Positions 551 to 61,746 of a stretch of 64,000 nt of DNA are shown here, piece by piece. A program made the position numbers and the translations under genes. Origin of the DNA: Mobula hypostoma (Eukaryota). Under the pieces are notes generated by a model. It was not told the origin of the DNA. It made no database searches and saw only the letters and a list, made by a program, of their open reading frames with translations. The DNA lies in assembly GCF_963921235.1 (NCBI RefSeq), contig NC_086097.1, positions 43,216,001 through 43,280,000 on the forward strand. Reading direction: 5' to 3'. Numbering within the stretch: the first letter of the stretch is position 1; each line of letters starts with the position of its first letter.

Positions 551-3500
551 CTGGTTCCAAGTGATAATAAAATAATATAAATATTAATAGAATACACTTA
601 TTACCAAGTGAATGTACAAGCTACCAAATAAAACTACTTGGAACCAAAACTCAGAGACGACTGTGCTTTACCTCTTGTTGATCTTCTGCCGGAGTCCCCT
701 CCAGAGTCATTTCTGCCATATGATGTGTCACAGTCTCTAGAGCATGTGCTTTGCTTTGGATATTACCTGCTTCTTTCAAAGTTTGCTTTTTCTCCTGTTT
801 TTTAGGCAGTTCTTTTGTTTTCCCTTTTTTCCCTTTCCTAGCCTTTTCCTCTTTACTTGGTCCTGCTGACTGAATCCACATAACATAAATTAAAATTTGA
901 GCATTAAATTTAAAAACAATCTGCTTTTTCCATTGATGCAAATTTATCCTTACCCCAAGTAATTTCATCATTAATTCACGATCCTCCTCATCCTGATCTT
1001 TATATTTTTCTTTAATTTTCTTCAGTTTAGCCTTAATTTTGCAAAACAAAGTAATAACATTAAGACAGCAGGAATGCATGACACTAACCAATTACATCTT
1101 CAATGGACTAATATTAGCAAAATTTACACCGAGCAGAATGATTTACATTGTCTCTATATACACCTTTAATTATGTTTTTCAGGTATTGTGCTTAACGCCG
1201 GTGCTGAAGCAGGTCACATTTCGCAAAATTAAGTTTAAAGTAATGCTCCCTTTGCCCTTCCCTACTGTACTTCAGCACAACCAAGGTGTGGCTTTTCAGA
1301 ATGAGATTTAAGGCCAGAGGATCCATGTCACTATGAATATTTGTGGAAAAATTATTATAGAATATTACAAATCACTAAATAGGAATTATTTAAAGCAAGG
1401 CCTTTAAACATTTTACCCTTTACCTTTTGTCCCCTCTTCAGTGGCTGTTGGGAAGATGATTTTTTAGTATCCTGGTCTTCCACAGATGTTTTGCTGGATT
1501 CAGGTTGAATTGTTTGTTCTAAGCTTTCATTTTCACTCCTCTTCTTCTTTTTCAGTTCTCTGGAACACAAAAAAAAATTAGTCTTTCTGCACCAGGAAGC
1601 ATAAATTTGTAAGCTGCACGTTGATTAAATCGCATCCCTTGTCCTATAACTGTTCCCTCTGGGGAAACCCTGATCTACCCCCTTTCTTCCCGGCACCTTC
1701 CCAATACCCAAAGGAGATGCATCACCTTTTCTTTTATCTTCACCCTTCCCTTTGTATGGGATTCCAAATATTCTTTCAGTTGTATTTCTTAAAATTTAGT
1801 AATTCAATGCTCACAGTGTAATCTCTACGAGGGAGAAAGGGTAACCACTTTGCAGAGCATGTCATATTCTATCTGCAAGCATGACTCCAAGCTCTCAGTT
1901 GCCACTTACTTCCCATATTACTATGCTATTCAGATGAAGCCCAATGGAATTTGAACAATGGCACCACAGAAGTGTAGCGGTTAGCATGATGCTATTACAG
2001 TTCAGTGCATCAGAGTTCAACTCCAGCATCCCGTAAACAAGTTTGTATATTCCTTCCTCCCGCAGTCCAAAAACATAGCAGTTAGTAGGTGAATTAGTCA
2101 TTGTAAATTGCCCCATGATTAGGCTACAGTTAAATCGGTGGGTTGCTGGCTGCGTAGCTCAAAGGGCCAGAAGGGCCTGTTCCACACTGTATCTCTAATG
2201 CATCATCTTCCTTCTGGGTGTGTTGGAACCCAACTGAGCTCAGCATGCAATTCAGCAATTTCAGATCATCTGCCATTTCAATCTTATAGTTAAAGTTTCC
2301 AACAGTATATTTCTTTCTCTTTGTAATTTCAGATTTAATTCTTTACCCTCTACTTGCAAGCTCCAATTCCCACTCCCCCCATTTCTGTAAGCCTCTACCA
2401 AATTTATAAATGCAAACACGAGGAAATCTGCAGATGCTGGAATTTCAAGCAACACACACAAAAGTTGCTGGTGAACGCAGCAGGCCAGGCAGCATCTACT
2501 GGAAGAGGTACAGTTGATGTTTCGGCCCAGGACCCTTCGTCAGGACTAACTGAAAGAAGAGCTAGTAAGAGATTTGAAAGTGGGAGGGGGAGGGGGAGAT
2601 CTGAAATGATAGGAGAAGACAGGAGGGGGAGGGATGGAGCCAAGAGCTGGACAGGTGATTGGCAAAAGGGATATGAGAGGATCATGGGACAGGAGGCCCA
2701 GGGAGAAGGAAAAGGGGGAAGGGGGAAAGCCCAGGGGATGGGCAAGGGGTATAGTCAGAGGGACAGAGGGAGAAAAGGAGAGAGAGAGAAAAAGAACGTG
2801 TGTATATAAATAAATAACAGATGGGGTATGAGGGGGCTCCCTTGTCCATTTGTCCCCCTCATCCCTCCCCACCGATCTCCCTCCTGGCACTTATCCTTGT
2901 AAGCGGAACAAGTGCTACACATGCCCTTACACTTCCTCCCTCACCACCATTCAGGGCCCCAGACAGTCCTTCCAGGTGAGGCGACACTTCACCTGTGAGT
3001 CGGCTGGGGTGATATACTGTGTCCGGTGCTCCCGATGTGGCCTTCTATATATTGGTGAGACCCGACGCAGACTGGGAGATCGTTTCGTTGAACACCTACA
3101 CTCTGTCCGCCAGAGAAAGCAGGATCTCCCAGTGGCCACATATTTTAATTCCACATCCCATTCCCATTCTGATATGTCTATCCACGGCCTCCTCTACTGT
3201 AAAGATGAAGCCACACTCAGGTTGGAGGAACAACACCTTATATTCCGTCTGGGTAGCCTCCAACTTCTGCTAATGCCCCACCTCCCTCTTGTACCCCATC
3301 CGTTATTTATTTATATACACACATTCTTTTTCTCCCTCTGTCCCTCTGACTATACCCCTTGCCCATCCTCTGGGCTTTTTCCCCCTCCCCCTTTTCTTTC
3401 TCCTTAGGCCTCCTGTCCCATGATCCTCTCATATCTCTTTTGCATATCACCTGTCCAGCTCTTGGCTCCATCCCTCCCCCTCCTGTCTTCTCCTATTATT

Positions 3501-61746: not shown

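What the first reader, a model, noticed from the sequence alone, without database searches (positions are those of the whole stretch)
2512..60693. Dispersed family of minimal hammerhead ribozyme motifs carried by Penelope-derived repeats in NEMF introns
Seen: the motif (c)agtc-CTGAYGA-a-gggt(n4)gccc-GAAAC-GTC-gact(g) recurs. The best copies are 3557-3592(+), 2512-2547(-), 58259-58296(-), 58496-58520(+, partial) and 60650-60686(+, core mutated). Decayed copies lie near 4286, 14480, 18828, 24032, 27891, 29176, 32895, 36909 and 37372. Established: CUGANGA/GAAA/NUH is the hammerhead core, and Penelope-like elements carry minimal type I hammerheads with a palindromic helix III thought to act as dimers. 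Inference: more than a dozen copies in 64 kb implies a very large genomic family. All well-preserved copies have an extra A after CUGACGA, and minus-strand copies would be transcribed within NEMF pre-mRNA.
Basis: partly seen in the sequence, partly recalled or inferred. Interest (0 to 1): 0.75.

Follow-up and report, generated by a model that had tools for sequence, protein, structure and literature searches.

The report
Decayed Penelope hammerheads in ray introns
The repeated motif is really there, in mutated copies on the end pieces of a Penelope-like jumping gene scattered through the introns of a ray's NEMF gene; it is an already described kind of small self-cutting RNA motif, and these copies are likely inert.

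Summary
All 14 listed places hold the motif, and all lie in introns of NEMF (minus strand) of a ray. They are pseudo-LTR ends of a Penelope-like element: GIY-YIG and RT remnants, inverted arms, a one-sided tail, 15- and 12-bp target duplications. The motif is the described minimal type I hammerhead; the 'extra A' (13 of 13 aligned copies) is a published feature of that class. No copy is perfect. Only 58259-58296(-) passes a strict descriptor; it has a G-U closing pair and a GUU site, and is predicted to be paired to its own antisense arm in the pre-mRNA. Decay is concentrated at CpG sites (55 of 130 cells against 51 of 338), which overlap G12, the helix III palindrome and the cut site. Helix covariation does not exceed shuffles. 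Contigs from four public runs show a very large family whose majority keeps the palindrome. No genome was held and nothing was assayed. One lead: five short copies start flush at helix I, not at the cut site. The scan has noted this family many times before, in this genome and others. New host member of a known kind; low interest.

The parts
494..61746 (-). Host gene NEMF (residues 1-972 of a 1066-residue ray homologue fall in the window); every motif copy is intronic
2412..3655 (+). Element A: 5'-truncated Penelope-like insertion; inverted arm with tail (2412-2836), then endonuclease end, pyrimidine-rich spacer, hammerhead, end without tail; 15-bp target duplication at 2397 and 3656
   Evidence: arms differ at 31 of 371 aligned bases
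2832..3266 (+). Zn-finger linker (C-x4-C-x2-C) plus GIY-YIG endonuclease remnant of the element
   Evidence: Pfam GIY-YIG E 4.3e-4, 21 bits, just under the 22.6 cut-off; 92% identical to a ray protein that also holds RT motifs
2512..2547 (-). Hammerhead copy on the inverted arm, sense to NEMF; core letters intact but helix I, II and III pairs broken
   Evidence: predicted paired to 3557-3592
3557..3592 (+). Hammerhead copy, antisense to NEMF; helices I and II intact, palindrome broken at 3586
3690..4382 (+). Older insertion B: inverted tail, endonuclease remnant, decayed hammerhead 4283-4318 (G12 lost)
14357..14813 (+). Old inverted-arm insertion with decayed hammerhead 14476-14511, interrupted by other sequence
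18822..18918 (+). Old decayed hammerhead plus downstream block
19196..19373 (.). Two inverted downstream arms with at most a remnant of the hammerhead; 9-bp exact flanking repeat
23930..24877 (+). Inverted tail plus hammerhead (24030-24065, minus; A6 and G12 lost) joined to an RT-coding body on the plus strand
27810..28025 (+). Inverted-arm insertion with decayed hammerhead 27891-27926
29074..29211 (-). Mini-insertion starting flush at helix I; decayed hammerhead plus tail; 8-bp exact flanking repeat
32805..33026 (-). Inverted-arm insertion; hammerhead 32895-32930 starts at helix I
36843..36945 (-). Mini-insertion starting at helix I; passes only the loose descriptor; 8-bp exact flanking repeat
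37301..37405 (-). Mini-insertion starting at helix I; G12 lost
58246..58611 (-). Element L: inverted-arm insertion with a 12-bp TA-rich target duplication, sitting inside another LINE-like remnant
58259..58296 (-). The only copy that passes the strict descriptor: full core, palindrome, 5-bp helix I; G10.1-U11.1 pair and U at position 17; sense to NEMF
58487..58611 (+). Inverted partner arm of element L (3' half of the hammerhead plus tail); antisense to the 58259 copy in the pre-mRNA
60650..60715 (+). Short copy starting at helix I; C3 and U4 changed

Best explanation
These are mutated end pieces (pseudo-LTRs) of a very abundant Penelope-like retrotransposon in a ray genome, each carrying the known minimal type I hammerhead motif, and the copies in NEMF introns are likely inert passengers. 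Shown: Penelope anatomy (GIY-YIG and RT remnants, inverted 5' arms, one-sided tail, target duplications) and the motif's layout. Inferred from published work on other Penelope-like elements: in the active element the motif cuts weakly, as a dimer through the 4-nt palindrome or with help from the element's protein, and is not needed for insertion. Inferred here: after insertion the copies decay neutrally, fastest at CpG sites that overlap G12, positions 11.1, 15.2-16.2 and the cut site; the two best sense copies are further predicted to be bound by their own inverted arms, which are transcribed first in the NEMF pre-mRNA.
For: GIY-YIG remnant directly upstream of the 3557 copy and RT body beside the 24065 copy. 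Exact 15- and 12-bp flanking repeats, longer than any in about 1000 random window pairs (max 10). Tail on one arm only, as described for these elements (PMC8557442). CpG columns differ in 55 of 130 cells (47 transitions) against 51 of 338 elsewhere; G12 is A in 6 of 13 copies; G12 is the general base (PMC6155905). Pair counts do not beat shuffles (176 to 430 of 500 reach the observed values). 7 sense and 9 antisense arms: no sign of avoidance of the sense strand. Folding of the minus strand pairs 58260-58284 to 58496-58520 with probability 0.91 to 1.0 and most of 2512-2547 to 3557-3592. Contigs of 4 of 4 runs read G at 3586 in 79-92% of depth, so the family majority keeps the palindrome and a GUC site. 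Literature: single minimal motifs showed no cleavage and dimers low cleavage (PMC4209133); 1 of 9 Xenopus dimers cut (bioRxiv 10.64898/2026.07.22.740005); the anole motif cut only with protein, was dispensable for insertion, and RNA-seq showed no ends at its site (PMC11167929).
Against: No cleavage assay and no raw RNA reads: inertness is predicted, not shown. One copy (58259-58296) keeps all core letters and the palindrome on the sense strand. Non-CpG core letters are less changed than non-CpG stem letters (10 of 117 against 34 of 195, p 0.03; against a downstream block 4 of 72 and 22 of 176, p 0.12), which pure neutral decay from one source would not give; I read this as selection in the active source elements of several subfamilies plus the bias of picking copies by the motif. 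The copies are not independent, so the p values are too small. Folding energies ignore the tertiary core and protein help, and the hammerhead fold is not predicted for the 58259 copy even without its partner arm, so the antisense arm is not shown to be the deciding factor. The GIY-YIG Pfam score is just below the curated cut-off.
Confidence: 0.9

Rival explanations
1. One or more sense copies, above all 58259-58296, cut the NEMF pre-mRNA or have been co-opted, like the conserved intronic hammerheads of amniotes.
For: Full core, palindrome and 5-bp helix I on the sense strand. Intronic hammerheads are thought to have been domesticated from retroelements (PMC6155905).
Against: No monomer helix III; the nearest same-strand copy among those found is about 21 kb away and lacks G12. 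G-U closing pair and U17 are both CpG-type changes; that they slow cleavage is recalled, though PMC4209133 calls G10.1-C11.1 highly conserved. Predicted sequestration. Isolated copy: hammerhead fold -8.6 against -11.0 kcal/mol as monomer, -14.1 against -27.1 as homodimer.
Confidence: 0.04
2. The short copies form a non-autonomous SINE-like or retrozyme-like unit whose RNA starts at the first base of helix I and is copied uncut by the Penelope enzyme.
For: 5 of 5 copies that lack the upstream spacer start within 0-2 bases of helix I; two have 8-bp exact flanking repeats that abut this edge. Internal RT initiation near the tail is shown for the anole element (PMC11167929). Retrozymes derive from pLTRs (bioRxiv 10.64898/2026.07.22.740005).
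Against: 8-bp repeats are within the chance range (39 of about 1000 random pairs reach 8). No head-to-tail array was seen. Copies that start at helix I are the easiest to detect. The five copies do not share an upstream leader. Structure-guided truncation or template switching explains the edge as well. This reading is compatible with the best explanation, not exclusive of it.
Confidence: 0.25
3. The motif is a chance resemblance within a repeat and has nothing to do with a ribozyme.
For: No Rfam hammerhead match; no covariation above shuffles.
Against: All class-defining details occur together: both core boxes, an extra base between 9 and 10.1 in 13 of 13, G10.1 in 12 of 13, palindromic 15.2-16.2 in the family majority, and position in the pLTR (PMC4209133). 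The motif is shared by subfamilies whose upstream spacers differ.
Confidence: 0.03

Closest known systems
Minimal type I hammerheads (min-HHR) in the pLTRs of metazoan Penelope-like elements (Cervera and De la Pena 2014, PMC4209133; read parts 1-2 of 4)
   Same: Core boxes, short helix I, extra base between 9 and 10.1, G10.1-C11.1, palindromic 15.2-16.2 with no loop III, mostly single dispersed copies, pairs 100-700 bp apart on opposite strands (here about 200 and 1000 bp).
   Different: Helix II is 4 bp here (7-8 bp in the Schistosoma motifs). The parts read name fish, coelacanth, Xenopus and reptiles but no cartilaginous fish; one of two supplementary files was searched and has no shark or skate entry, the other could not be searched.
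Neptune-clade EN+ Penelope-like elements (PMC8557442; 12 of 25 passages seen)
   Same: C-terminal GIY-YIG, C-x4-C-x2-C linker, inverted 5'-truncated arm, one-sided tail, TA-rich target at element L.
   Different: Only fragments are in the window; no RT tree was built, so Neptune against Nematis rests on the linker plus host range.
PAc, the Poseidon element of Anolis carolinensis (PMC11167929; read parts 1-2 of 4)
   Same: Hammerhead in the pLTR upstream of two alternative 3' ends that define a tail; AT-rich targets.
   Different: Different clade; PAc was assayed (protein-assisted cleavage), this family was not.
Non-LTR retrozymes of animals (PMC7229834, passages; bioRxiv 10.64898/2026.07.22.740005, parts 1-3 of 5)
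   Same: pLTR-derived short units with a type I hammerhead; reported from one cartilaginous fish.
   Different: Retrozymes are head-to-tail arrays able to form dimers; the copies here are single or inverted.
Conserved intronic hammerheads of amniotes, RECK and others (PMC6155905, passages)
   Same: Type I motif in an intron.
   Different: Those are single conserved loci; these are decaying repeat copies without a monomer helix III.

Membership tests
PLE minimal hammerhead | Core CUGANGA, GAAA and UH in type I order | tested here: met
   Complete in 4 of 13 aligned copies by core letters; 1 copy passes the strict descriptor
PLE minimal hammerhead | [quoted passage not shown] | tested here: met
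   A in 13 of 13; described in PMC4209133
PLE minimal hammerhead | Palindromic 15.2-16.2, no stable monomer helix III | tested here: met
   Intact in 3 of 13 aligned copies and in the partial 58487 arm; family majority in contigs of 4 runs
PLE minimal hammerhead | G10.1-C11.1 pair | tested here: met
   G-C in 7, G-U in 5, unpaired in 1 of 13
PLE minimal hammerhead | Compensatory changes in helices I and II | tested here: inconclusive
   79.8% of cells pair, above slid controls, but no measure exceeds shuffles; 13 decayed copies only
PLE minimal hammerhead | Self-cleavage as dimer or with protein | not testable with these tools
   No assay; only contigs, no raw RNA reads
EN+ Penelope-like element | RT followed by C-terminal GIY-YIG endonuclease | tested here: met
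   Separate remnants at 24103-24877 and 2835-3263 match different parts of single ray and shark proteins; Pfam GIY-YIG and weak RVT_1 on these, scores under cut-off
EN+ Penelope-like element | pLTR with inverted 5'-truncated arm and a 30-40 bp tail on one end | tested here: met
   Elements at 2412-3655, 23930-24877, 58246-58611
Neptune clade | C-x(2-5)-C-x2-C linker between RT and EN | tested here: met
   Seen in the translation of 2832-3404; shared with Nematis
Neptune clade | Placement in an RT phylogeny | not tested
   No reference set at hand
Non-LTR retrozyme | Head-to-tail tandem units each with a complete hammerhead | tested here: not met
   Copies are single or inverted; the closest same-strand pairs (3557/4283, 36945/37405) are separate decayed insertions
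Domesticated intronic hammerhead | Orthologous copy conserved across species above its flanks | not testable with these tools
   No genome held

The most novel reading that the evidence does not exclude
The ray's mini-insertions record the 5' end of an uncut family RNA that begins exactly at helix I of the hammerhead, making them a SINE-like product of internal reverse-transcription priming; and the ribozyme is built on CpG sites, so that host methylation disarms each new copy, which would explain how a vertebrate tolerates so many hammerhead motifs inside its genes.
Probability: 0.25. Interest if true: 0.45.

Novelty: new member of a known kind. Interest (0 to 1): 0.17.

Why it matters
The kind of element is described, so the finding adds a host lineage and a very high density, not a new system. 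What the hammerhead does for Penelope-like elements is still open (PMC8557442, PMC11167929). A genome with this many dated copies allows a test: where insertions start relative to the cut site, and how fast the motif is lost at CpG sites.

Tried and rejected
Genome-wide count: not possible, no genome held; counts in earlier notes are unchecked. Rfam: no hammerhead hit. Sequencing runs: no RNA holder listed on record; 18 of 24 rows are guessed RNA, all kept as contigs, so ends, strand and level of RNA could not be seen; table 6 lists no pile-up of ends, which contigs cannot show. Splice-acceptor idea (pyrimidine tract then AG at helix I, echoing the Drosophila virilis intron in PMC4209133 and PMC2377424): the whole spacer is about 80% pyrimidine, so the tract is not discriminating, and none of the 15 joints shown has GT..AG ends (346 not shown); set aside. 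Arms that start at the cut site: one clean-looking case near 32953 and one ambiguous near 19306; not enough. Target duplications: 13 elements tested, 2 above the chance range, 3 borderline, 8 none. The rough binomial for five starts in one 3-base bin (p about 0.001) rests on my by-eye tally of 14 breakpoints and is not a firm test. Rows dropped from the 13-copy alignment: 58487 (half motif), 18824 (insertion), 22841 (helix II missing); 47001 was kept although its score is near noise. Look-alikes of 58200-58650 in other scanned genomes: none. Literature: five searches and term look-ups in two shark and ray genome preprints (no occurrence of Penelope or ribozyme) found no description of this ray family or of CpG-driven decay of these motifs; the library lacks most subscription papers and Repbase, one search was too loose to show absence, and preprint supplements were closed.

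Full report
Observation. The five named copies read as stated and all nine decayed places hold an alignable copy. A scan with the 58259 copy gave 12 hits against at most 1 in each of three shuffles. A profile of motif plus downstream block gave 29 hits against 1 in the reversed window, including arms without the motif and two weaker copies near 22841 and 47001. The idealised motif occurs 0 times. Rfam gives no hammerhead match. A descriptor I wrote finds one complete minimal hammerhead, 58259-58296 on the minus strand, and two more when the palindrome is not required; 100 shuffles average 0.01 and 0.04.

Setting. The best protein matches to a window exon are NEMF proteins of rays. tblastn places 28 exon blocks on the minus strand from 61746 to 494. 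All 16 motif-bearing arms are intronic, 7 sense and 9 antisense. No whole genome was held.

The carrier is a Penelope-like element. 2832-3266 encodes a C-x4-C-x2-C linker and a GIY-YIG domain (Pfam score just under cut-off), 92% identical to a ray protein whose N-terminal part matches the RT remnant at 24183-24877. Element A (2412-3655) has an inverted arm with a tail at one end only and an exact 15-bp target duplication; element L (58246-58611) has a 12-bp TA-rich one; random pairs reach 10 at most. Inverted 5' arms, a one-sided tail and the linker are described for EN+ elements of the Neptune and Nematis clades (PMC8557442, passages). Neptune is my inference from linker and host; no tree was built. 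So 2512 with 3557, and 58259 with 58496, are the two arms of single insertions, not independent copies.

The motif is the described minimal hammerhead. Cervera and De la Pena (PMC4209133, parts 1-2 of 4) list the extra base between 9 and 10.1, the G10.1-C11.1 pair, the palindromic 15.2-16.2, dispersed single copies and opposite-strand pairs. Laying contigs of four public runs on 2900-3680 placed 7,113 to 68,681 contigs per run, which shows a very large family but is no copy number; at 3586, 79-92% of depth reads G, so the majority keeps the palindrome and a GUC site (71 further differences were not shown).

State of the window copies. Four of 13 keep all 11 core letters; three of 13 keep the palindrome; one keeps both. 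That copy has G10.1-U11.1 and U17. Changes fall mainly on CpG columns: 55 of 130 cells, 47 of them transitions, against 51 of 338. The copies are related, so the p value (1e-9) is too small, and position 7 may be T in older subfamilies. These CpG sites overlap 11.1-G12, 15.2-16.2 and 17-1.1; G12, the general base (PMC6155905, passages), is A in 6 of 13. Methylation-driven CpG loss in vertebrates is established knowledge; I did not measure methylation. Helix pairs hold in 79.8% of cells, but no covariation measure beats the shuffles. Against the neutral reading, non-CpG core letters are less changed than stem letters (10 of 117 against 34 of 195); selection in source elements and picking bias can give this.

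Would sense copies cut NEMF pre-mRNA? Folding the minus strand pairs 58260-58284 with the antisense arm 58496-58520 at 0.91-1.0, and most of 2512-2547 with 3557-3592; in both cases the antisense arm is transcribed first. Without the partner arms the hammerhead fold is still not predicted in context. For the isolated 58259 copy the hammerhead fold is 2.4 kcal/mol above the best monomer fold and 13 above the best homodimer fold; these energies ignore tertiary contacts and proteins. Published assays point the same way: no monomer activity and low dimer activity, 1 of 9 Xenopus dimers active (bioRxiv 10.64898/2026.07.22.740005, parts 1-3 of 5), and a protein-assisted anole motif that is dispensable for insertion and leaves no ends in RNA-seq (PMC11167929, parts 1-2 of 4). 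Inertness is therefore likely but untested.

A lead. In this window, 5 of 5 copies without the upstream spacer (29211, 32930, 36945, 37405, 60650) lose similarity to all eight spacer-bearing copies within 0-2 bases of helix I; two have 8-bp flanking repeats at that edge, which is within chance range. If real, the template RNA was uncut and may start there; structure-guided truncation is the plain alternative. A splice-acceptor reading was set aside.

Novelty. The class is known from fish, coelacanth, frogs and reptiles, and hammerhead-bearing retrozymes are reported from one cartilaginous fish. My searches found no description of this ray family; they do not cover Repbase or most subscription journals, and unseen supplements may bear on this. 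The scan has noted the same family often: 81 notes in this genome fit the look-up, with others in other genomes; these are unchecked and not counted as support. Verdict: real, correctly named, a new host member of a known kind, interest 0.17.

Noticed in passing
window 60652-60659 (+): The two changed core letters of the 60650 copy are the reverse complement of the usual two and sit between short inverted repeats, which looks like a hairpin-loop micro-inversion, one event and not two.
   Followed up: no
window 17465-17530 (-): An old copy in which the upstream spacer runs straight into the downstream block, as if the hammerhead had been deleted between the two arms of helix I.
   Followed up: no
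   Followed up: partly
window 3580: Position 11.1 reads T in 59% and 51% of depth in the two guessed-RNA runs but 16% and 10% in the two large runs. The organisms differ, so this may be subfamily make-up; it could also mean that transcribed copies are richer in weakened motifs.
   Followed up: no
window 32953-33026 (+): The inverted arm appears to begin at the base just after the predicted cut site; a single case.
   Followed up: partly
proteins P0123, P0124, P0132, P0136: Several annotated ray host proteins (kinase-like, mucin-2, chitinase-domain, NLR) carry pieces of this element's ORF, from exonisation or mis-annotation.
   Followed up: no
window 41766-44011 (-), 40195-40689, 49052-50080 (+), 57937-58923 (+), 62326-63998: Other repeat remnants in the NEMF introns: LINE-type RT pieces, a Tc5/Tigger-type transposase piece (Pfam E 7.5e-7) and the LINE-like remnant that hosts element L.
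   Followed up: no
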